A stretch of DNA of 64,000 nt. Origin: Amoebophrya sp. A120. Lineage: Eukaryota; Protista; Dinoflagellata. The stretch is taken from assembly GCA_905178155.1 (NCBI GenBank), contig CAJINV010000006.1, forward strand, positions 1,303,876 through 1,367,875, written 5' to 3'. The notes under the pieces were generated by a model. That model saw only the letters and a list, made by a program, of their open reading frames with translations, was not told where the DNA came from and did not search any database. The position numbers and the translations under genes were made by a program. This document shows positions 5,701 to 48,137 of this stretch, piece after piece (within the stretch, counting starts at the first letter, position 1; every line of letters starts with the position of its first letter).

Positions 5701-6138
5701 GTGGTAGAAGATCAAGATGGAGAGATTTACACTGAAGTCGAAGTGTCTTCCGGAAAGAGTGACAGGGCGACAGAAGAGTTTTTTTTCCCTGTTTCGCGAT
5801 ACCAGATAGAGAGGAAACCGCGTGATTTTCTTTCCGTTGTTGAGCGCAGAGTGGTGGAGGTCCTCTGCGACGTAAGTAGGTGTACCTACTACAGCGTAGC
5901 GCTGAGAGCGAGGTAGTATGAATGTTTTGAGTAGACACTATTAGATAGAAAAACCAGTTTGTTGTAGCTACTAGCGCCAGTCCTCGTTCATTTCGTTGAT
6001 CTTCCTGTTGTGTTGATTTTGCGTGTTTTCCTCCTGGAGCAGGTCTAGTACTTCTTCACATTGAGCTGTCAAAGGAGTCATGTGTCGTGGTGTCGAGGAT
6101 CCTCGTCACAAATAAATCTCTGAAACGGGCGAGTATCG

Positions 6139-7209
6139 ATGTTGTCGCACGCGGCCTCAGCAGATGTCCTCTGCGGAGAACCGCCAGCAGCATTGCAAGG
6201 GCATGCTCACAGCCCGCAGAGGTTGTCTTCTGCATCTACTTACTCCGCCAGAAGTTGTGTAGTAGCCTTCCCAACATCGTCCGGGTTCTCCAGTCCTCCC
6301 GGATCGTCTTCACAACGACTGGACCAGCACACGGAAACAGCTTGTGAAAAGAAGTCGCATTCTGCGCCGGGGATGGTGACGCAGGTGGATCAGGACGCAC
6401 GAAGGAGGACAAGTTTCGCGAATGCCACTGTCATGAGTCATTCTTGTGAAGCTGCACGACCACGAGAAGAGCCAGCAGGGGCGATGCAATTAGAACTACC
6501 ACAGATGAACGACGACATCTTCTCCTGCACCGGGAAAATTCACTGCAACAGCAACAGCCGATCCTCAATTTCTTGTACCCGACGGGATTTGAGTAGTAGG
6601 GAAGAGACTGGTAGTTGTTGGCGTCGCAACGTCGCTACCAGTGCAAGAAGTTGGTCATCTTCCACTCTTGTAGAAGAGGCTCCTTTGGTCTGTAGTTCGC
6701 TTGTTCGCTGCACTACATTTCGTGGCGTCGGACGACCAGGGCAAGAAGGTGGTGCAGCTTCCGTTCCAAATCATCAATCTCGTGAACACGTCGGCCACGA
6801 AGTTTTAGAACCCTCTCGCCAACAACAGCGAAAGATGCAGCAAGCAACGTCGCAACTGCAGGACCTCGAGCACGTCGTTGGGAAGAGGATAAAAAGCGCA
6901 ACCGGTTCACCCGTAGTTTCAACTACAGTGAAAACAGCCCGCCCCAGCTCCTGCTCGGACAGTAGATCACTTTTCAAATCAACAATGTGGTCACGACTAG
7001 AAGGGCCGCTGAAGAGACTTTTCTTACCGGTGCGAAAGTACAACAATCTCATCCGGCAGAAGAACGAAGCTAAGGAAACGAGCAGAAGTAGAACCCAAGG
7101 AGCTTCTACTGTCTCAGCCAGCTCGATGCAGGACAAAGAGAAGACGAAATCAACTAGAAAGAACTCATTTTCAACAGGGGCAACAACCGCAGCAAAAACC
7201 ACTGCGACC
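6139..7209 (+). CDS. Ser-rich hypothetical ORF, copy 3 (reads in frame into the next gene)
   Basis: Paralog of copies 1 and 2; no stop before ATG 7210. Confidence 0.35.
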
Positions 7210-10200
7210 ATGTTTTTCTTTCTCGCATCTTCAATTATCATCCCTGAAGCATCCGCCTCGGCCTTGCTTTCTTCTTTAAACCTCGACGACTGCCAGTGCG
7301 CGGTGGAAGACGGAAGGTGTCCGAACGGGTACTCCTGCCACTGCGAAAAGCCGAAGGATATTCTGGGCGATCCCTACGACTGCGCGACGGATACTAAGTG
7401 CTACAACCCGGTGTGTATCATGTGCAAGTATGTCTGGGTCTGGAAGAATGCATGTTTGTCATGCTTGTCGGGCATGACTCTTAAGTCTGTGATGCACGGC
7501 ACCCAAGAGCTCCACTGTTCTGTCATGCAGAAACGCAGTTTGTCATGCAGAATAGGCAACACCTAGAAGCTCAGAAACTTGTCATCCTGAGCCAGCACTT
7601 GTGGCCTCCTCATGATACGCCACCCAGCATCACAAGTTTCCAGACCCAGACGCAGACACATTTGCAATGCATAGTGCGCCCGGCCGGGTACTGGAAGTGC
7701 TGCTTCGACTGCGAATACAATTCCTGCGCGTTCTATGGATGTGTCAGGATCGAAATCGACAAAGTCGAGAAATTTGTGATGCACAAAATGTAGGGCACTG
7801 AAGGCCTGTATTGGGCAGCAGGCAAATGAAACCGATTGTAAGCCTGTTTAGGGGCGGTATGCAATGCGCTGCCAGAGTAGCATGACAGGAGCAGTCTTCT
7901 TTGCCTAGACAGCATGACATACTGGCCTTGGGTGCTCCCGAAATTTGTCATGCGCCGCTTGGAAACTGAGGCTCCAACTGGTATCGATTTTGTGCATCAC
8001 AAATTTTTCGACTTTGTCAATTTCGATTCTGACACCTCCATACTTTCCAAGACGGGTTTTACATCCAGTCGCCGTCTTATGAGAGTGCACAACTTGTTCC
8101 CCTCCCCCTCATTTGTCATGCAAAAACCCCAAATCCAAGTGATAATTCCATGTGGCATTGTTTGCATGACAGATTCCGGAAGCCCAACCAGTACTACGCT
8201 AGGCGCATGAATCTGTCATGCACAGGCTCCGCGTGTGCTGGTGTTTGTCGTGCTGTTCATGCAATACAAATGAGGGGGAGTTCGGAGTTGTGCACTGTCA
8301 TACGTCGTTCCAGCAAGCCAGCTTTCTCCGGCCCTTCTGGCTCGAGGAAGCCATCGTCACCCACGTGACGGATCCGAGTGCAGATTCCAGTGGCGGCTAT
8401 GAATTGCAAAAGTTAAAGTAGCGTACAAGTAGTCAAAATTGCAATACAAACTAGCGCAGCACGACTAATTGAATTTCTTGTAGCCATTTTGGCTCAAGAT
8501 CCCTTTGAAATTCTCACCTCACCAATAAATCGGTGGGTGGGGGGGTCTTCGAGTTTTTTACTCTTACCACAGCGGCACCGTGTAGAGGTAGTTGACATTT
8601 TACTGAATGAGAGACGTAGAACGCAGCTACAATTTACACCGCACTAGAAACAAGTTGGTAGATTGAGTAGGCTACGATCATAACGCAAACAGACACTGAA
8701 TGCGAAAACTACAACTCACTTATAAAAACTACACATATTCAAAATACGCAACTCAGAAATAAGACTAGAAATACGCAAGCCCATCCATAAAAACAAAAAA
8801 ATCTAAAAACAAAAAAATAAACTCAATATATGCGCGCAACGCTAACGGGGAAAAGCCGCGAACCTTACCAAGACAAGCGGAACAGAGACGCGACTACTTC
8901 CAGACCAAGAACTTCGGAGCTTGAACATTGTGGACTTCAGATTTCGCATCTTCGACTTCAGAAAGAGCTGCAGAAAACCGCGACCGCCAAAAGCAAGTCT
9001 CGGGCGCCGTACATTGATAAGAGCAGGCAGCAGAAGACTTCGCCACAGCAAAAAGCCAGGGCCGGCCACAAAGCAAGGGCAACTAGTAACACGCGACGCA
9101 TTGGGCTCGCTGTCATTTTGCCTGCGTTCGAAGTCGGCGAGAGCGAAGCAAGAGAGGACCGCTGATACAGAATGAAAGGAGAGCGGCTGCGAATGTGAAT
9201 GGAGCAGGAAAAGATAGCAGTAACTGGAACAAAAGTTCCGCCCTTTATAGTGAAGATGGAGGATAGGCGGGAGATGAGTCCTGCTCAAGTCGTTTGCTAC
9301 TTTGCTTAGCCCACCATAAAACTTCCGGGGACGACTTGATGAGGATTGAGGACAGCTGTGTTACATTTCGTCGAGCCGCTTGCTACTTTGCTTAGCCCAC
9401 CATAAAAACATCCGGGGGCGACTCAATGAAAAGGACATAGCAAGAACAGCTTCACTATATTTATTATTTAACCCCGTGCTGGGTAATACTACTACTACTA
9501 CTTGTCATGCTGATGTACCTTAATACGGCAGAATTGTCATGCACGGCTGCAATTAGATGACTTACTACGAGCACGATACTTTTGCACAGGATAGCGGCAG
9601 TTCCTCGGCGAACTCCGACACCGGTTCTGCTGTGTACTCCTCCGACCGAATCGGCCCGGCGGCCAACAACGGCGCGGCCAGTGCGCTGTCCGGCATCACC
9701 AACGTGCAACGTGCCGACGCGGGGACGCCCCTCACTCCCGTGGTGAAAGAAAACATCAAGCCGCCCATCGTCTCCGGGACGGACTACCACGGTGCTATCA
9801 ACGGCATGCACGGGGGTCGGGAGCTGAACCTGATGAACACGGAGCTCACGCTATCCTGAGTAAAAACGTTCCCACACCAGAGTTGTCATGCAAATCTGCA
9901 TGCCAAAAAAGTTTGTCATGCGGAGCGCCATGAGAGGCATTTTCTAGCCGTGTTTTGGAATTTGTCATGCTACAATCAGCGTGATATACTAGATCTGTGA
10001 TGCTGCTGAACTACCTAAACAGGATTGCACTAGTACGAGGACAAACTTGTCATGCCAAATGACCAAAGCTGGCTGATTTGTCTAGCAGATTTCCCATCGT
10101 GACTCTGGTGTGGGGACGTTTTTACAAATGATACACACTGAGCTCCCGGGGCCGCATGGAGTGCCTCCCCTGCCGGAAAGGCGACTACTGCATATGCATC

Positions 10201-12835
10201 GCAAAAGTATCGTACTAGTAGGAATAACGTTACAAATTTTCTCAGCATGATGAGAAAGGAAACTTGTAATGCGGATTTAAGTTGGCAAAAAAATGTGTAA
10301 TGCATAAAATGCGATTAGTACGAGTGCGATACTTTTACAATGCATACTGGACCGGGTGCGACAACTTTGCGAAGTGCCCGGAGGAAGAGCGTATCAAATG
10401 CAAAAGTGTCTGGGTCTGGAAGAGTTCCAACTTGTCATGCTAAGTCTGGATCATGCAAAACTCTGTCTTGCGTGATCACCAAAAGCTGCACTTTTTTAAC
10501 CAACACGAGAGGCAGTTTCTCATGCAGAATAGGCATGATACAGAGCTCGCAAAATCTGTCATGCTAGGTCCTGCATTCCAGACCTCGTAGGGCATCGAAA
10601 TTTTGCATCACAAGTTTGTATTCTTCCAGACCCAGACATATTTGCAATCCATAGAGCGCCGCGACGCGCTGCGGGGCTATGCCCGGTACAGCGTGCCGAG
10701 GCTGAGCAACTCGAAATCGGTTTTCGCCAGGGAGTATAAATTGCAAAAGTGTATCGTAGTCATACTAGTAGAACTTCAACTTGCTCAACAGCATTTTTAC
10801 AAATGAAACTTGTAATGCAGAAGATCTACCTTAAGAAATACATTGTTGCACGATTGCAATCACTACGAGTACGATACTTTTGCAGTTCATACGGAGTGCG
10901 CCCGCTGCCCGGACGGGTGGGAGCCTGATTTGTGGCTGCGGCGGTGTGTGAGGGAGTAAGTAGTATTTTTGATGCTATCTAAGCATGACAGATTCTTGTG
11001 TGCTCTGAAGTGCGCATCCTTCCAACTTATTTCCACCAGACCCGGATGACTACATGTAATTCTAAATTATTTGCAATGCACGCAATACAAAATTGAAATT
11101 TGCAATGCAAAAAACGCTATACCAGGTTCCGCAACGAATGCGACATGGAGCTGCTGCATCTTTGCATGGACATATGGGAGTGCACAACTCCCCCTCCCCT
11201 CATTTGAATGACATGAGCAGCAACACAAGCAACGCAAGAAATATGGCTTCCGCATGACAAATCTGCAGACGGATTACAGCACTGTTTGAGGCTCCAAGTA
11301 GATTTCTCATGCAAACTGTGCTCGAGGGCAAGACGTGGATTTGGTATTTTGCATTACAAATGAGGGGGAGGGAGAGTTGTGCACTCTCATAGGACAGGTG
11401 CTATTATTATGACGAGTGCGAGCGGCACCAGTGTCTCGTTAACTGCGTATGAAATGCAAAAGCATCGTACTAGTATAAATCGCATGACAAATTTCCTCAG
11501 CATGAGAAATGAAATTTGTAATGCGGATTTAACTTGAGAAAGAAATTTGTAATGCATGACTGCGATTACTACGAGTACGATACTTTTGCACAGGATACTG
11601 CGCACGGGAGGACGAAAATCCCCGGTATGTTTTGCAAATATCGACCTGGGTCAACAGGATAGTTGTGATGCACGATTCCAAGGACAAAACGATCTGTGAT
11701 GCATGAAGACAAGTCGCCAGCGTTTTTGTCGTGCTAGAAGCCAGTTTGTCATGCGTTCCCCTGATACGGATGAATTGTGAATTCGTAACAAGCCCTTTAA
11801 GAAATTTCTCATGCCGTTATGCCTCACAAGCGGCTACTCTGCGATGGAAGGTTCAGCAACACAAGTTTCCAGGAGACCCAGATCGATATTTGCGGTGCAT
11901 ACTAGGTGCAGGGAAGCAATGCTGGAAACTTGCGAGGAGTTGAATTCTTTAACGCGGGAAATGGTGATTACCGATCCGAGTTTATTACCAGCCAGCGCGA
12001 CGACGGTATAATGATTTGTCTTTGTCATGCTAGACGAGGTAATATCTTCAGATGCGACATACGCTATAGCGCAATACAAACAGCCGTAGAATTAAAAACA
12101 ACATACTAGGTCACGACCTCTACGACCGGCATCAACGAAGATTCCGGTTTGTCTATGCAAGAAAAAAACTATGTAAGTGTACACTTGTGTTGCAGAACAT
12201 GCAACATAGTTACACCTGTCATGCCAGACAGCCATGAAGCCCTCTACTTTTCATGTGTGTTTTTCCTTACAAGCCACGCATGACAGGTTTTCTCTGTCAT
12301 GTAAAGCAAATTATTTGTGATGTTGTTCCTCAAAGAAAGTTACACTTACACACTTTTTTTCTGGATATTGTCCGTCCTAGCCGCGATGGAGGTGGACTAC
12401 CAGTGCAATACTGTGAGGAAAAATCCCCCCTCACCATATCGAAAACGAAATTTGTGATGCTCTATTTGAGTACACAAATTGACTTGTATTGCTAGAAGGC
12501 CAAGAAATGCAGACGATGCCCCGTTTGCAGGCAATTTGTCATGCTGCTTCCGATTTCCAGCTGCCTCCTGTCGTGCTGAAGATGCAAGGCTTTCCCACGC
12601 AGCCCAGCACTACAGTCCGCATCTTTTCCCTTCTAGCATGACAGCGTGATTTGTGATCACCAATCACGCTACACAAATCTACCATTGAGCATGGGGAGGG
12701 GGGTTTTTCCTTCTGATATGCAATCTGAAGTGCGGGAGAAACACCGCGAGTGGGTTGAAACTGTCGAGTACTGTGGCTTTGGTGGCGATTTTGATGTTGA
12801 CGGTGGGGGCGGGTGGCGGGGGGATTTTTGTTTAG
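7210..12835 (+). CDS. Cysteine-rich secreted/surface protein, 16 exons, C-terminal hydrophobic (TM or GPI-signal) tail
   Basis: Signal peptide MFFFLASSIIIPEASA. Removing 15 introns gives one frame with CYNPVCPAGYWKCC, MECLPCRKGDYCTGC, CARCPDGWEPD, ending VALVAILMLTVGAGGGGIFV*. Confidence 0.8.
7416..7673. mobile_element. Introner family A (TIR TAT..tgcaaa.atgtctgggtctggaag)
   Basis: TSD gtgtg/gtgcg. Confidence 0.9.
7734..8042. mobile_element. Introner family E (TIR TATgg..gtgtcaggatcgaaatcgac)
   Basis: TSD cgttc/ctttc; similar to 52350-52655. Confidence 0.9.
8078..8302. mobile_element. Introner family D (TIR TATgagagtgcacaactccccctcc)
   Basis: TSD cgtct/cgtcg. Confidence 0.9.
8480..8498 (+). 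other. Relic dinoflagellate spliced leader
   Basis: GTAGCCATTTTGGCTCAAG = 3' 19 nt of DinoSL DCCGTAGCCATTTTGGCTCAAG; followed by AT, not the GT donor of an SL-RNA gene. Confidence 0.9.
8482..9500 (+). mobile_element. Retroposed SL-trans-spliced transcript nested in an introner
   Basis: Starts with SL, ends with a (TAC)n tail, flanked by cttgt/cttgt; internal ~50-bp direct repeat near 9293 and 9380. Confidence 0.7.
9852..10133. mobile_element. Introner family F (TIR TATcctgagtaaaaacgt.ccca)
   Basis: TSD cacgc/cacac. Confidence 0.9.
10193..10346. mobile_element. Introner family B
   Basis: TSD ctgca/ctgga. Confidence 0.9.
10392..10653. mobile_element. Introner family A
   Basis: TSD gagcg/gagcg. 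Confidence 0.9.
10735..10891. mobile_element. Introner family B
   Basis: TSD gggag/cggag. Confidence 0.9.
10956..11125 (+). other. GT-AG intron with introner vestiges
   Basis: GTAAGT...ctATAccAG; joins CVRE|FRNECD; internal gcatgaca motif. Confidence 0.75.
11173..11391. mobile_element. Introner family D
   Basis: TSD ggaca/ggaca. Confidence 0.9.
11448..11597. mobile_element. Introner family B
   Basis: TSD ctgcg/ctgcg. Confidence 0.9.
11626..11901. mobile_element. Introner (TIR TATg...gcaaatatcga.ctgggtc) that also has GT-AG ends (11625-11905)
   Basis: TSD cccgg/ctagg; G-TAT...ATA-ctAG. Confidence 0.85.
12006..12109 (+). other. GT-AG intron with introner vestiges
   Basis: G-TATaatg...caacATA-ctAG, internal tttgtcatgc; joins ASATT|VTTST. 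Confidence 0.75.
12154..12367. mobile_element. Introner family G (TIR TAT.caagaaaaaaact.tgtaagt)
   Basis: TSD ttgtc/ttgtc. Confidence 0.9.
12409..12718. mobile_element. Introner family C (TAC start)
   Basis: TSD tgcaa/tgcaa. Confidence 0.9.
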
Positions 12836-13992
12836 GGAAAACAAGACGCAGGTTCAAGTTGATCTATCGGATTTTTGCTTCGAAGATGAAATGTACTGAG
12901 TCAGCAAATTCGATATCGTTTTTGTAGTACTGAGAAATTAATGGACAACATTAACAAGAGGTGGAAGTAGCAAGTAGTAGTAGTAGTACAAGCACGCAAG
13001 GCAGAAGTAAAAGTGAAAGTCGTTTAGTCGCGAAAAAAGCTGGCAGATGAAGATCAAAACTAAAGGGTCAGACTGTGAATAAAATCGAAAGTGCGGCGAG
13101 CTCCTCAAAAAGCCCGCGTGTGCGTTTTAACCGATTGCAAAAATCGTAATATGGAACGCTGAAGAATAAATAGGAACTGGTCTCAAAACAGGCATCAAAC
13201 GTTAATTAAAGTACTTATACATAGAATATCAGATGAGCTAGGCAAACAGTACACAAAATCATGTAGGGCTAGAACACCCCAGTTGCAATCGACGAAAAAG
13301 ACGAAATAAATCAATTTGAATGACGCAGCGGAAAAATCAAGAGCTTTGTAAGTATAGTGATTTTTGCGTTGAAACTGCAGTTTATTATGCTGCCACGAGG
13401 CGATAATTCGAATTCCTGTAGATAATCGCGATGTTGTTGCACAGCAATTATTCCGTGTCCGCTACGCTGAGGCATTCATAGCAATCGCACATTGAAAAAG
13501 GAAATGAACTCCACAAACTCGGTCACTGCTCAACACCAAAGGCAGAAACTCGGTTGTGCGCTGCATCCGACGATGCTGCAGCAATGCTGGTACAAGATAC
13601 CACTGAATTTCGGTCGTGATTATACGTATGCAATTGCGGTGCCAGGAACAACTGCTGCAATCGGACCACCCGTGGCTGTCAAGAGTCGACTTCAACGATG
13701 ATCTGGAATTGATAGATGGATGTTTCTTTTCTCTACTTTTCGAATTTCACTAGTGCAAATAAAAGGATTCGACCACTACCACTTCAAAACAGCGGCCTCT
13801 GAAAAATTGTAAAATCTATCATCTGTGGTCAAGAACATAACCTGACGACCCTTCCTTATTCACAACACCACAAAAGTTTTATTTGTTTTTCATTTTCATC
13901 CATCGACGTCGATTTTTCCATCTAGTATTGAACACCAATAACCACATACTACTACACCAAGCGAAGAACCGACTCCTTCAACACACCACAAA

Positions 13993-43200: not shown

Positions 43201-46200
43201 GGAGGGGGAGTTGTGCGCAGTCATATAGAGTACGACGATTTCAAAAACGCCCGTCCGCTGTGCTGCGACTTCAACACCGGCGCAGGTAGGGCGAACGGAA
43301 ATGCTGGCACGAATGCAAGTGGTACGTCTGCGGTGGGAGGAGGAGGTGTTGCCTCTTCATCTCCATCTGCAGCCACTGGTACGACCACCGGAGCTGATAG
43401 CACGGTCACAGGAACAAGCTATGCTGTTCTCAAACGTTACATTCTCAACTGTTACAAACATGATTACTATCTAAACTGCAGCAGCTGGTCAAAAATGCAG
43501 GCGAGGGGTATGTTCTGGGGTATGTTCGGGGGTGTGTCAGGGGTATGCAAATGGCCGTCAATCACAGGCGGAATGCAATTTTTTGGCGAAAAAGCAACAG
43601 GTGGGGTATAAACATACCCCAGACACACCCCAGACACACCCCAGACACACCCCAGACATACCCCAGACAGACCCCCGAACACACCCCAGGCAAAAAGTCC
43701 GAACATACCCCAGACACACCCCGGACACACCCCGGGCCGACTTTCCGACACACCCCGGGCAGACTTTAGGACACACCCCGGACACACTTTGGGACCTCGC
43801 CACGCGAGATGTGCAATGGCGGACTCCAGTTTGTCACGCAGGCCGCCAGCCTGTCGAGCTTCCCGGGCCCCGTTGGCAAGGCCCAGGGACGAAAGGCGCC
43901 CTCGGTCAGCGCGGGGGCCCGGTCCCCGCGTCATGACCTGGGGGCCAGCTTTGGGCGCTTCCCGGACACCGTACGGCCCAGGGGCAAAAGCCCTAGGTCA
44001 GCGCGGGGACTCGGTCCTCGCGTCATGACCTAGGGGCCAGCTTTGGGCGCTTATATCCCGGAAACCACCCGCACGGCCCAGGAGGTACAAAAGCCCTAGG
44101 TCAGCGCGGGGACTCGGTCCCCGCGCCATGACCTAGGGGCCAGCTTTGGGCGCTTCCCGGAAACTAACCGGCCGCACGGCCGAGGAGCAAAGGCCCTAGG
44201 TCAGCGCGGGGACTCGGTCCCCGCGTCATGACCTGGGGGCCAGCTTTGGGCGCTTCCCGGAAACTAACCGCACGGCCCAGGGGCAAAAGCCCTAGGTCAG
44301 CGCGGGGACTCGGTCCCCGCGTCATGACCTAGGGGCCAGCTTTGGGCGCTTCCCGGAAACTAACCGCACGGCCCAGGGACAAAAGCCCTAGGTCAGCGCG
44401 GGGACTCGGTCCCCGCGTCATGACCTAGGGGCCAGCTGCAGATCCAGCGCCAGACTCTTCCTTTCTGTTCTCTTTGTTCGCGGTAGGTTAACGGGCCTAG
44501 TGTGGGCAAGCAGAGGGGCTCCGTCCGCAGATCTGTCGTGGATCAGGGGACGCAGGCCACACAGAAACACCGGGCTGCAGTGGTCTGCCTGCCCAGTGCC
44601 ACCACAACCCCCGAACTCGTCCCAGAGAAATGCCGGAAGGTCGCCGCATGGGGACTCTGTCCCCGTGCTCGGACCTTGTTTGTCATGCAAAATGACCATG
44701 ACCCGTCAGACGATCAAGCTGCTTCGCATGACAAATTCTCGCAAGGCTGAATAGCACTGTAATCCGGATCAAACCTGTAATGCAAGACGCGCAAGGTTCC
44801 CCCTCTCACCTGTGCTAGTCTCGCATCACAAATTTATGTAAGAGTTGAGAATGTAACGTTTGAGAACGCCATACAAGCCACCTCCTCGTTGTGGGGTTCG
44901 ATAACGGGATGTGTGCGATGTACGAAGTGTATCAAGTGGAGAAAAAAATCACGGAAGAACAGCATTCATCTGCTGTAGAAGAAGCTCCTTCTGCAGGCGA
45001 GGACTCTACTTCGTCTTCTCAGACCTCCGAGGACACGACGAACACCCCCACTGGGGAAGTAGAGAACAACAAGAAACCCGTATCAAATGTAAAAATGTAT
45101 GGGTCTGGAAGAATGCAAGATTTGCGATGCACGTTTTCCATGACCCATGAGGTCTGGAATGCGAGACCCAGCATGACAGATTCTTTGCGGTCTCTATCAT
45201 GCCTTTCCTGCATGAGAAACTCTCTCTCAACTTGGTCGAAAGTGGACACCTTTTGGCACTCATGCAACACAGATTTCTGCATGATTCAGATTCAGCATGA
45301 CAAGCTGCAACCGTCCACCCCCAGACATTTTTACATTTGATAACCCGGAACTACAACCGAAACTGGCAAGGACACCAGCGAGACCACAGAAGATGCAGCT
45401 GATATTGTGAGGAAAAATCCCCCCTCCCCATATCGAGAGCGGAATTTGTGTTGCTCCTGTATTTGAGTACACAAATCACATCTGTCTTGCTGGAGAGGAC
45501 TGCAGACCCATACCAAGCCTGAGCACAGAGGCTTTGACTTAGGCGCTTAGCATGAAAAGCGTCCGTGATGTAGGCTCAACAGCATGACAAACCGCCTCCA
45601 TAATGGGACGAAAGCTGCTGCCCTTGTCTTCTTGCAACACAAACGTGATTTGTGACCTCAAATCAGCAACACAAATTTTCGAAAACCTACCTCTTCAATA
45701 TGGGGGGGGGATTTTTCCTTGCGGTAGCTGACACGGAGATGAAACTGAAAGACAAAGAGTCTGACCACGACGGGAAAGAAACAAAAGACAAGGAAAAGGA
45801 TGCAGCTGCTGCTGAAACAGAAACTGGAAGTGCAGAGAAAGGTGATGATAACAAGGAGAAAGCGAGCACTACTAGTACTACTACTTCAGGATCATCATCA
45901 TCATCATCATCTACGTCTCCAACCAGTACTGGCAATGACAAAATCGTCGTAGTCCAGAAGGTGTGGCAGATCAAGCGGCTTCGGCACATCGAGTATTGCA
46001 AGGAAAAATTCCCTCTCCCCATATTGAAAACGCATCGGTCTGAAAATTTGTCATGCACATTTGTGACCACAAATCGGGTCTGTCTTGCACAGAGGCAATC
46101 TCAGGCTGTCCGCCACGTTATGCAGGCGGTTTGTATGTAGTGAGGTCACCGAACGGTTCTAACCGGGGAGTTTTTTTGACACCCAGACAGCAAAACGGCC

Positions 46201-48137
46201 GCCAGTTTTCAAGCGGGCGGAAGCGTTTTTGGACGTAAAAAATTTTCAAGTATCAAGCGGCCGGGGCTTTGATAGCAAACAAGCCCGGTCGAAAACTATC
46301 GATTCGCACTTGATAAAACGACGCAGGAGAGCCGGCAAAAGGGGCGCCCTTCGGAGGCGCCCACCGCCTTAGTTTCTGGCGATTTGGGGCTCCCAAAAAG
46401 GGGCGCGCAAAAAACACGCCCAAAAACAGAACAGCGAAACAGCCTGGCACGGCCGCGATTTCGGAGCATTCTGGGCGGCCGCGAAAGCGGTTGCCTTTTC
46501 GCCGGTTTTAGAGCCTGGGAAGCTTTGCAAAAAGCGCCGACGTGAAAAATAAAAACGCGAAAAATAAAAAGCGCCCCCGACGCGCAAAGCCAATCCGCAT
46601 GCTATGGGCCCGGTTTTTCTTCGCTTTTTGGGCGCCCCCCGTGGCACCCGGATCGGCCCCATAGCATCGGGGCTGGCTTTCGGAAAGGAATTTTGGAAAT
46701 GTGCCAAAATTTGCGACGCTTCCCAAGTGGCCGCCATACCGTGCGGCATAACCTTACTCACGGCGGTATGGCGAGCCCATAAAAAGCAAAGCCGCGGCCA
46801 AGGCGGCGGCCGGCAAAAAAACGCCCACGACCTCACTACCCCCGCCCCGGCGGCTATATTTGGTAATGCTGTAAGGCCTACGGGGCAGCCGTCTACCATG
46901 CTAGGCGCCTACACCAGAAGGCCCCTATCTAGGCTTGCGATGTGCGTGCAATCCTCTACTGCAGGACCAATCTGATTTGTGTACGCAAATGCAGCATCAC
47001 AGATTTCTTTGGCGATATGGGGAGGGGGGACTTTTCCTCTCAATATCGAGGTGGCCACTTTCATGCACAATCGAGAGCGGGGACAGACTATGCATTGCAA
47101 ATATGTCTGGGTCTGGAAGGATGCAACTTGTCATGCTGTCATTGGATTCCAAGAAAATCTGTGTTGCATGACCAGCAAGAGGAATCCAGTCTGTGCTACG
47201 TGGAGAGGGCATTTCTCCTGTGGAATAGGCGTCAGGAAGCCCTTCAAAAATCTGTGATGCTACGTCATGCATCACAGACGTCATGGGTCATGGAAAATAT
47301 GCATGACAAACCTGGCATTTTTCCAGACCCAGACATTTTTGCATTTGATACAGACGAATGCCCACGGCAGCCAACACGCGGCTTGTTTCACGGTCAGGTC
47401 GATTTTGCCAAACGTGGTGGCCGCGGGATTTGGGGATGGATTCCGCCTGATCGACGTTTCTGCAGTCACGGGGAAAGAGGTATCTAGAATTTAGAATTTC
47501 GTTTTGTAGTCATGCTGAATCGGCATACTGCGTGGCCTTTGTCATGCTTGAAGGCAGCAAAAATCGTCAATATGATAAAAATACAGATCTGCGCTTTCGA
47601 CGGTTTATCCGACCGACTTTCCGGGAACCCGAACCCCCACTTAAAGAACAAAAAGTCTTACCTGACAAGCTCCCACTCTAAAACTTTGGTCGGGTACGAC
47701 GCGGTGACTGGGCGGTTGATCCTGGGCGACCGGCTGACGGGAAAAGTGGTGATGTGGTGCTTGAAGCAGCGAAAAATCGTGCAGGAGATCACCTGCTTCG
47801 ATTCCGAAATTTCCAGCTTACTCCTCGGTGTCGAAGATGTTTTGTTCGTCGGCGGAAGAAGCGTCGGGAATAACATCGGAGAGGACGATGACGATTTTGA
47901 AGTATCCTGTGCAAAAGTATCGAACTCGTAGTAATTGCTATCATGCATGACAAATATCCCTTTTTAGGTAAATCAGCATTACAAATTCCACTTTTCTTCT
48001 TGACAAAATTTGTGATGCAATTTATACTAGTACGATACTTTTGCAATGCATATGAAAACGGTAACAACAATGCGGTAACCACGGGAATTGGGAAAAACGA
48101 TATTTTTGGAGGGCACATCCGAATTTTGACAAGATAG
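40275..48137 (+). CDS. Striatin-family protein (N-terminal coiled coil plus C-terminal WD40), 13 exons
   Basis: QEKLNQDLRKRVKMLEYLLRRERQ matches the striatin coiled coil. WD40-like LVSGSEDGIVCLFD, FLTADAAGDLVLWKI, LVVGFDNGMCAMYEV. Nine introners plus GT-AG introns 41558-41680, 42467-42614, 47480-47586. Confidence 0.82.
40562..40782. mobile_element. Introner family D
   Basis: TSD gcgaa/tcgta (degenerate). Confidence 0.85.
41783..42017. mobile_element. Introner family B with ~80-bp nested insert
   Basis: TACgaattgcaaaag...cttttgcagtgcATA; TSD degenerate. Confidence 0.8.
43007..43225. mobile_element. Introner family D
   Basis: TSD tggaa/tagag. Confidence 0.85.
43610..43790. repeat. 11-bp minisatellite (acacaccccag)n
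   Basis: Multiple imperfect copies; inverted relatives ggggtatgttc at ~43505-43547. Confidence 0.85.
43898..44438. repeat. ~97-bp tandem repeat, ~6 copies, each with a long hairpin
   Basis: ccctaggtca-gcgcgggga-ctcgg-tccccgcg-tca-tgacctaggg at ~43991, 44094, 44194, 44290, 44386. Confidence 0.92.
45081..45342. mobile_element. Introner family A
   Basis: TSD acccg/acccg. Confidence 0.9.
45403..45726. mobile_element. Introner family C (GTA end)
   Basis: TSD gctga/gctga. Confidence 0.9.
45994..47045. mobile_element. Introner family C enlarged by a ~730-bp insert
   Basis: TSD tcgag/tcgag. Confidence 0.9.
46136..46863 (+). mobile_element. Nested non-autonomous element with asymmetric inverted repeats (Helitron2/Helentron-like)
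   Basis: gtagtgaggtc (46137) / gacctcactac (46829), then ccgcc-cc-ggcgg hairpin near the right end. Confidence 0.5.
47089..47350. mobile_element. Introner family A
   Basis: TSD cagac/cagac. Confidence 0.9.
47903..48052. mobile_element. Introner family B, reverse orientation
   Basis: TSD tgaag/tgaaa. Confidence 0.9.

What the first reader, a model, noticed from the sequence alone, without database searches (positions are those of the whole stretch)
8477..9505. Spliced-leader-capped retrocopy with a (TAC)n tail parked inside an introner
Seen: the ~1 kb insert in a family-B element starts exactly with GTAGCCATTTTGGCTCAAG, ends in tactactactacta, and is flanked by cttgt/cttgt. It has no long ORF. 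Known: DinoSL is trans-spliced onto dinoflagellate mRNAs, and relic SLs mark retroposed transcripts. Inference: a non-coding SL-trans-spliced RNA, possibly a SINE-like element, was reverse-transcribed and inserted, and the enlarged 1.2 kb introner is still removed.
Basis: partly seen in the sequence, partly recalled or inferred. Interest (0 to 1): 0.8.

Follow-up and report, generated by a model that had tools for sequence, protein, structure and literature searches.

The report
SL-capped SINE-like retroelement inside an introner
A 1-kb non-coding repeat that starts with the dinoflagellate spliced leader and ends in a short simple-repeat tail sits inside a transposon-like intron of a marine parasite's gene; it is likely an RNA-copied jumping element that borrows another element's enzyme and is likely cut out of the message together with that intron.

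Summary
Mostly real, with corrections. A 1,025-bp insert (8477-9501) lies in a TAT..ATA introner (8398-9593) whose removal plus 5 nt restores the host frame. It carries an exact 19-nt DinoSL and a (TAC)5 tail. The 'cttgt' duplication is probably wrong: 14 of 14 siblings point to a 2-bp TT duplication plus 3 extra bases. It is a family, not a one-off. DNA contigs show two sisters at the 5' end and one at the 3' end. A 5'-truncated copy (L001, 86% over 123 bp) lies between genes in a related assembly. Both other visible 3' ends keep the terminal hairpin but have a (CTAT)n tail. That fits a low-copy non-autonomous non-LTR retroelement copied by a LINE enzyme with tail slippage. No SL-less source locus appeared; both 5' sisters keep the SL's last 9 nt. 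Not shown: splicing of this intron, the partner LINE, introner targeting (1 of 2 sites with known flanks). The scan noted an SL-headed repeat and a LINE inside introners elsewhere in this genome (e1-10589590, e1-10627526); sequence look-ups did not link them to this insert.

The parts
8307..8397 (+). Host exon upstream of the introner, ending in the left copy of the 5-bp duplication GCGGC (8393-8397); the exact cut within the duplication is not fixed here
8398..8476 (+). Left arm of the family-B introner (TAT start; a 6-nt duplication inside the TIR); ends in TT, the left copy of the likely 2-bp target duplication (8475-8476)
8477..8479 (+). Three extra bases (CTT) absent from 14 of 14 siblings; likely untemplated or miscopied where the SL's first three bases would be
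   Evidence: interpretation inferred
8480..8498 (+). DinoSL nt 4-22, exact
8490..8677 (+). 5' module shared with two sister contigs; includes a predicted stem (8491-8555) that pairs the SL's 3' end with the element body
8678..9195 (+). A-rich, faster-diverging middle; only the element's own contig lies here at 80% likeness; holds a chance-level 111-aa frame (8830-9165)
9196..9486 (+). 3' module shared with a sister contig; 13-bp inverted pair 9246-9258 / 9447-9459 enclosing two hairpin repeats
9279..9345 (+). Hairpin repeat 1 (invariant core, covarying outer stem)
9366..9431 (+). Hairpin repeat 2; also present in L001
9471..9484 (+). Small terminal hairpin (4-bp stem, variable loop) kept in the X1/X2 sister and in L001
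9487..9501 (+). (TAC)5 tail; the sister and L001 have (CTAT)n instead
9502..9593 (+). Right arm of the introner, starting exactly at a TTGTCATG subterminal motif and ending in ATA
9594..9850 (+). Right copy of GCGGC (9594-9598) and the downstream host exon
   Evidence: an RNA-like contig covers 9710-9852

Best explanation
The insert is one copy of a low-copy, about 1-kb repeat family with an SL head, conserved ends and a simple-repeat tail, and it is likely a non-autonomous non-LTR retroelement that a LINE enzyme copied from an SL-capped RNA into this introner. Steps: (1) a family copy is transcribed and SL trans-spliced (inferred from the exact leader joined to the element body with no GT donor); (2) a LINE reverse transcriptase recognises the 3' hairpin region and primes at a nick in the introner's TTGTCATG motif, slipping on the last few bases so that the tail unit differs between copies (tail difference shown; mechanism inferred from the UnaL2 precedent); (3) cDNA runs to the cap region, loses the first 3 SL bases, gains CTT and closes with a 2-bp duplication (junction shown; cause inferred); other events stop early and leave 5'-truncated copies such as L001 (shown); (4) the insert lies between the introner's ends, so the 1.2-kb unit is likely still spliced out and the gene stays intact (frame restoration shown; splicing not shown). 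Whether the element is an internal-deletion derivative of the LINE (RIME/NARTc-like) or of separate origin is open.
For: Family: in DNA runs X1 and X2 (one sample; 11 records laid each, 8 listed each) two non-self contigs match 8490-8677 (23 substitutions + 5 gaps over that stretch) and 8490-8605 (3 + 2), and a sister covers 9196-9317 (20+5), 9294-9400 (10) and 9378-9462 (7+2). The sister's loose end shows the same terminal hairpin and then (CTAT)n (table 7). L001, found with a 20-nt core pattern, is 86% identical over 123 bp (E 1e-36), ends at the same hairpin with (CTAT)n, lies between genes, and has no SL or 5' homology upstream (best local score 47 vs shuffled mean 48). Homology stops at the tail in all three visible 3' ends. 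Ends are more conserved than the middle, and folding signal is confined to the ends (5' stem z -3.7 and hairpin 1 z -4.0, each 0 of 200 shuffles). Over three hairpin copies 89.6% of cells pair and 4 of 16 pairs change on both sides (16 of 500 shuffles reach this). No tRNA, Rfam family, Pfam family or protein homologue. Removing 8 introners plus 5 nt each gives 292 codons without a stop up to a GTAAG donor; keeping this one gives a stop 4 codons in. Precedent: stem-loop plus repeat tail and template slippage in UnaL2/SINE (PMC1636434, PMC3747384 passages); non-LTR elements are reported in this genus (PMC7789003, PMC12130899 passages).
Against: The TSD is only 2 bp, or ambiguous. Sister pieces are separate contigs, so their full length and flanks are unknown, and X1/X2 may be the window's own sample. 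The covariation rests on 3 related sequences and a structure drawn from one of them; the whole 3' domain does not fold better than shuffles (z -0.85 on +, -0.25 on -). In L001 the antisense strand folds better (z -3.0 vs -0.5). No contig shows an SL-capped element RNA or the spliced junction; RNA-like contigs cover only the insert's interior at depth 2.4-5.6 and may be DNA or unspliced pre-mRNA. L001 is not in an introner.
Confidence: 0.72

Rival explanations
1. Ordinary dinoflagellate retrocopy: an SL-capped cellular mRNA or lncRNA was reverse-transcribed once into the introner, and the sisters are its parent and paralogues.
For: DinoSL relics mark retrocopies in over 20% of Symbiodinium genes (PMC5585692 passages). 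A 111-aa ATG frame follows an A-rich leader. RNA-like contigs lie on the interior. Only about 3 copies are visible.
Against: No poly(A); three visible 3' ends each end in a simple-repeat tail right after the same hairpin, with two different units. A 5'-truncated tailed copy exists (L001). The putative coding part is the least conserved, the ORF is chance-level and has no homologue. Both 5' sisters keep the SL's last 9 nt, so neither looks like an SL-less parent.
Confidence: 0.12
2. The leader comes from DNA, not from trans-splicing: a CRE/SLACS/NeSL-like master copy sits in an SL-RNA gene at the exon end, is transcribed from the SL promoter, and its copies carry the SL exon as 5' flank.
For: SL exons are known targets of site-specific non-LTR elements (PMC4640811 passage). 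The junction falls exactly at the SL's last base, which both models predict.
Against: Only one complete SL gene per genome is reported for A25/A120 (PMC7789003 passage). Neither 3' end with a readable flank (window, L001) is followed by SL-intron-like GT sequence. The sisters' upstream letters differ from an intact SL.
Confidence: 0.07
3. An endogenised RNA replicon (virus segment or satellite RNA) with structured ends, SL-capped by the host and captured by a reverse transcriptase.
For: Structured conserved ends around a variable middle; the antisense strand of L001 folds better, and two C.A mismatches shared by hairpin 2 and L001 become G.U pairs on that strand.
Against: No ORF homologue; no match in viral contigs beyond 17-nt chance hits; variable simple-repeat tails and 5' truncation are retroposon marks; hairpin 1 and the whole domain do not prefer the minus strand.
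Confidence: 0.05
4. Assembly chimera of an SL-bearing cDNA or unrelated repeat with an introner.
For: No listed contig bridges the right junction; depth is 0 over 9463-9525 in the second lay.
Against: A 355-bp contig with 0 differences at single-copy depth bridges exon, left arm, SL and insert in X1 and X2; X1 depth is 31.7 in the 9454-9510 bin of the first lay; the two arms add up to one normal-sized family-B element with a perfect outer duplication.
Confidence: 0.03

Closest known systems
Stringent-type SINE/LINE pairs such as eel UnaSINE/UnaL2 (PMC1636434, PMC3747384; passages)
   Same: Non-coding passenger with a conserved 3' stem-loop followed by a short-unit repeat tail; tail behaviour fits template slippage.
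   Different: About 1 kb, no tRNA/7SL/5S head found, an SL head instead, very low copy number, tail unit differs between copies, partner LINE not identified.
Trypanosomatid RIME/NARTc non-autonomous retroposons (PMC1874656; search listing and start of abstract only; deletion-derivative nature recalled)
   Same: Short non-autonomous non-LTR elements with a conserved 5' block, in a lineage that trans-splices.
   Different: Those carry the Pr77 promoter, which makes unspliced transcripts; here the copy begins with the spliced leader itself and ends in a microsatellite.
Dinoflagellate retrogenes with DinoSL relics (PMC3229502, PMC5585692, PMC12014239; passages)
   Same: Genomic SL at the 5' end as the mark of a reverse-transcribed, trans-spliced RNA.
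   Different: No protein-coding cargo, no poly(A), dispersed tailed and truncated sisters.
Xenopus Tx1L in Tx1D (PMC6719617; passage)
   Same: A non-LTR element nested in a DNA transposon.
   Different: Targeting is proven there; here 1 of 2 known sites is in an introner, the passenger is non-autonomous, and the host transposon doubles as an intron.
Amoebophrya introner elements (PMC7789003 sections 11-12; PMC12130899 passages)
   Same: The host element has the TAT start, inverted ends and short direct repeat described for strain A120.
   Different: The passages read do not describe SL-headed inserts nested in introners ('nested' occurs 0 times in either main text).
SL-trans-spliced TE transcripts in Hydra (PMC12220107; passage)
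   Same: About 30% of TE long reads carry an SL, so TE RNAs can use host trans-splicing.
   Different: That is RNA-level; here the SL is fixed in the inserted DNA copy.

Membership tests
Non-autonomous non-LTR retroelement | Dispersed copies sharing a 3' end that stops in a simple-repeat tail | tested here: met
   window, X1/X2 sister and L001
Non-autonomous non-LTR retroelement | 5'-truncated copies | tested here: met
   one case, L001
Non-autonomous non-LTR retroelement | No reverse transcriptase or endonuclease coded | tested here: met
Non-autonomous non-LTR retroelement | Target-site duplication | tested here: inconclusive
   2 bp (TT) by sibling comparison, 5 bp only with an extra assumption; no convincing TSD for L001
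Non-autonomous non-LTR retroelement | Partner LINE with the same 3' end | not testable with these tools
   no genome held; no look-alike in scan notes
Classical SINE | Pol III head from tRNA, 7SL or 5S RNA | tested here: not met
   ARAGORN 0 genes; Rfam only one chance hit at E 2; the head is DinoSL
Classical SINE | Short (a few hundred bp; size range recalled) | tested here: not met
   1,025 bp
Classical SINE | 3' stem-loop before the tail | tested here: met
   4-bp terminal hairpin in 3 of 3 ends and covarying upstream hairpins; energetic support modest
Dinoflagellate retrogene | DinoSL relic at the 5' end | tested here: met
Dinoflagellate retrogene | Coding sequence of a parent gene and a poly(A) remnant | tested here: not met
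   tail is (TAC)5
Dinoflagellate retrogene | SL-less parent locus with an AG acceptor | tested here: inconclusive
   both visible 5' sisters keep the SL's last 9 nt; their upstream letters are a mixed consensus of two contigs
SL-RNA gene | SL exon followed by a GT donor (PMC9399869 passage) | tested here: not met
   AT follows the leader
Amoebophrya introner (host element) | TAT start, terminal inverted repeat, short direct repeat, repeated family | tested here: met
Amoebophrya introner (host element) | Removed from the mRNA | tested here: inconclusive
   frame restored; none of the 3 RNA-type runs laid over the flanking exons covered them
Target-specific non-LTR element (Tx1-like) | Several copies at the same site of the same repeat | tested here: inconclusive
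   this copy abuts TTGTCATG (0.1-0.5% of strand positions); L001 does not, though TGT stands at the same offset; the sister's flank was not visible

The most novel reading that the evidence does not exclude
A class of SINE-like elements whose head is the spliced leader rather than a Pol III gene: they need no promoter of their own, ride in host pre-mRNA inside introners, are released and re-capped by SL trans-splicing at their own relic leader (whose 3' half is built into the element's 5' stem), and use a LINE that prefers the TTGT motif common to introners, so that each new copy is both transcribed and spliced away.
Probability: 0.25. Interest if true: 0.75.

Novelty: new variant of a known kind. 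Interest (0 to 1): 0.5.

Why it matters
It would be a non-autonomous retroposon in a dinoflagellate-lineage genome that uses trans-splicing where SINEs use a Pol III head; my searches found none described. It gives a handle on the enzyme behind dinoflagellate retrogenes: the 3' module and tail are a bait for finding the responsible LINE. It also shows that the unexplained non-GT-AG introner splicing probably ignores the interior of the element, so introners can shelter other mobile DNA inside exons. Each ingredient is known separately, so the advance is moderate unless targeting and SL re-capping are shown.

Tried and rejected
A first reading of a 3-bp host TSD was dropped for the 5-bp GCGGC. 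Coding by the 111-aa plus frame or the 52-aa minus frame: no Pfam or homologue, chance-level length; the protein atlas gave no answer. A minus-strand TATA promoter idea was dropped: the motif is one arm of the 13-bp inverted pair, and the sigma-70 scan is not apt and at chance level. Ribozyme, snoRNA, SECIS or tRNA origin: no Rfam or ARAGORN support; no hammerhead core by eye. Viral-contig hits L002-L004 match only about 18-23 nt and were treated as chance; a head pattern in viral contigs and the core pattern in prokaryote genomes found nothing. Raw RNA runs X12 and X13 gave only A-rich spurious matches, so they say nothing on splicing. The SL half alone does not pair unusually well with the next 62 nt as a free duplex (54th percentile of 2,064 windows); only the in-context stem is unusual. 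Two pair counts were run in the wrong register before the right one. The mixed loose-end consensus upstream of the two 5' sisters could not be separated into two sequences. The A120 SL logo and SL-gene alignment are supplementary pictures and could not be read, so I cannot exclude that CTT is part of this strain's own leader.

Full report
Setting. The window is eukaryotic (Pfam hits to NHL, short-chain dehydrogenase, MFS, striatin and ABC-transporter frames) and full of TAT..ATA elements with 5-bp duplications. This matches the description of Amoebophrya sp. A120 introners (PMC7789003 section 11) and the scan's earlier notes on this genome. The organism name is therefore inferred, not given.

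Host element and gene. The host introner runs 8398-9593 with a perfect GCGGC duplication. Without the insert its arms add up to about 170 bp and align with 14 same-orientation family-B siblings. Removing eight introners between 7198 and 10962, each plus 5 nt, gives 292 codons without a stop, from a signal-peptide-like start through cysteine-rich repeats to a GTAAG donor; leaving this one in gives a stop four codons after the junction. Of 37 elements detected with perfect duplications, 3 exceed 1 kb, and the other two also restore an open frame when removed. Splicing of this intron was not observed. Of the three RNA-type runs laid over the flanking exons, X3 had no depth on either flank bin and X12/X13 had no real matches; 15 of 48 joints were listed, none from RNA. 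One X3 contig covers the downstream exon at 9710-9852 with 8 unaligned letters at the next introner boundary, a weak hint that the gene is expressed past the insertion.

Junctions. The exact 19-nt leader is at 8480-8498 and is unique in the window. AT follows it, not GT, so this is not a canonical SL-RNA gene (donor described in PMC9399869 passage). All 14 siblings lack the extra CTT, none of 137 TTGT[ACG]ATG motifs is preceded by TTC, and two closer siblings in DNA run X1 match through 8476 and no further. I read a 2-bp TT duplication and an insert of 1,025 bp (8477-9501) with three extra head bases, exactly the number missing from the 22-nt leader. Whether they are untemplated, miscopied opposite cap-modified bases, or this strain's own leader start is open; the supplementary SL figures of PMC7789003 are pictures. 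The left junction is bridged by a 355-bp contig with no differences in X1 and X2 (one sample, possibly the window's own); the right junction is covered at single-copy depth in one lay but by no listed piece.

It is a family. In X1 and X2 (11 records laid each, 8 listed each) two non-self contigs match from 8490: one to 8677 with 23 substitutions and 5 gaps, one to 8605 with 3 and 2 before it merges with our own path up to 8677. A third set covers 9196-9462 in three pieces. Nothing but the element's own contig lies on 8678-9195 at 80% likeness, yet the loose letters just past 8677 and just before 9196 still resemble our sequence by eye, so the middle has probably diverged faster rather than being unrelated. 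About three copies are visible; more distant ones would be missed. Both 5' sisters keep the leader's last 9 nt and differ upstream; the two-contig consensus there (agreement 0.65) looks like a mutated leader but cannot be decomposed. The 3' sister keeps the small terminal hairpin and then reads (CTAT)n. A scan of metagenome contigs with a 20-nt core gave one locus, L001: 86% over 123 bp, the same hairpin, (CTAT)n, intergenic, in a contig with the same introner families. It has no leader or 5' homology upstream, so it is a 5'-truncated copy. It shares several listed differences with the X1 sister but is not identical to it (compared by eye).

Structure and coding. Folding signal lies at the ends, not in the middle. 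The 5' stem pairs the leader's last bases and the first element bases with 8542-8555 (z -3.7; pair probabilities). The leader half adds 11.6 kcal/mol to this body; 6 of 1,996 other AG-following stretches gain as much, but 168 of 3,000 random AG-ending 9-mers do as well with this body, so this is a lead found after the fact. Two 60-nt hairpin repeats share an invariant core; with L001, 4 of 16 pairs change on both sides (16 of 500 shuffles), on only three related sequences. Against: the whole 3' domain is not more stable than shuffles on either strand, and L001 folds better antisense. No Rfam family, tRNA, Pfam family or protein homologue was found; the 111-aa frame is reached by 10.8% of shuffles. 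RNA-like contigs identical to the insert's interior occur in X3, X4 and X5 at depth 2.4-5.6; their RNA label is a guess and they may be DNA or pre-mRNA.

Mechanism. A shared 3' end that stops at a hairpin plus simple repeat, a tail unit that differs between copies, 5' truncation, a short duplication with extra 5' bases, and no coding capacity fit target-primed reverse transcription of a passenger RNA by a LINE enzyme. Stem-loop recognition and tail slippage are shown for eel UnaL2 (PMC1636434 and PMC3747384 passages). The intact leader says that this copy's template was trans-spliced, as for dinoflagellate retrogenes (PMC3229502, PMC5585692, PMC12014239 passages); TE transcripts also take up leaders in Hydra (PMC12220107 passage). 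The copy lies in the host gene's sense, and its relic leader offers AG acceptors, so read-through plus re-trans-splicing could regenerate element RNA; this is inferred only. The 3' junction abuts the introner motif exactly, which holds for 0.1% of strand positions, or 0.5% within 2 bases. Given that survivors must avoid exons, the chance inside a 170-bp element with two sense motifs is nearer 3% (my arithmetic), and L001 is not in an introner. Targeting is thus suggestive. Two unreviewed scan notes report an SL-headed repeat and a LINE at fixed introner positions elsewhere in this genome; look-ups with this insert and its two ends found no look-alike, so they are leads, not support. No reverse transcriptase was found in the 40 of 64 long window frames or 15 L001 frames scanned.

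Relation to known systems. It works like a stringent-type SINE or a RIME/NARTc-type passenger, but it is not a classical SINE (no Pol III head, 1 kb), not a retrogene (no cargo, no poly(A)) and not an SL-RNA gene. Transposon-nesting non-LTR elements are known (Tx1; PMC6719617 and PMC4640811 passages), and A120 introners attributed to non-LTR elements are mentioned in PMC12130899 (passage; datasets not read and may bear on this). Seven full-text searches and passages of a 2024 review (PMC11453091) and PMC3101222 showed no description of an SL-headed non-autonomous retroelement in dinoflagellates or of one nested in an introner; subscription journals are largely outside that library.

Verdict. 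Real feature, first reading partly supported, new variant of a known kind. Confidence in the non-autonomous retroelement reading 0.72; interest 0.5; up to 0.75 if SL re-capping and introner targeting are shown.

Noticed in passing
window 43420-44873: A 1,454-bp TAT..ATA element with a perfect 5-bp duplication, filled with about 96-bp tandem repeats; removal plus 5 nt restores an open frame.
   Followed up: partly
window 45994-47045: A 1,052-bp introner whose arms match several short siblings and whose central part (about 46135-46865) is unique in the window, probably a nested DNA element; removal restores an open frame.
   Followed up: partly
window 12973-12987: The only other TAC-type run of five units (minus strand), in non-introner DNA; no homology to the insert beyond the repeat.
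   Followed up: partly
window 8405-8420: The host's left terminal repeat has a 6-nt internal duplication absent from siblings, which lowers end pairing; if the intron is still spliced, the signal tolerates it.
   Followed up: no
window 6124-10950: Host gene: signal-peptide-like segment and cysteine-rich repeats, preceded in frame by about 360 further open codons, so the true start is unclear; no Pfam hit for the first frame.
   Followed up: partly
window 9372, 9376 and L001 826-900: Two C.A mismatches shared by hairpin 2 and L001 become G.U pairs on the antisense strand, and L001 folds better antisense; the fold may matter in cDNA or antisense RNA.
   Followed up: partly
L001 3569-4634: Introners 70-84% identical to families in the window, so L001 comes from the same or a closely related organism.
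   Followed up: no
window 8602-8632 and 8695-8725: Degenerate 31-nt direct repeat, 93 bp apart, straddling the point where the sister alignments end.
   Followed up: no
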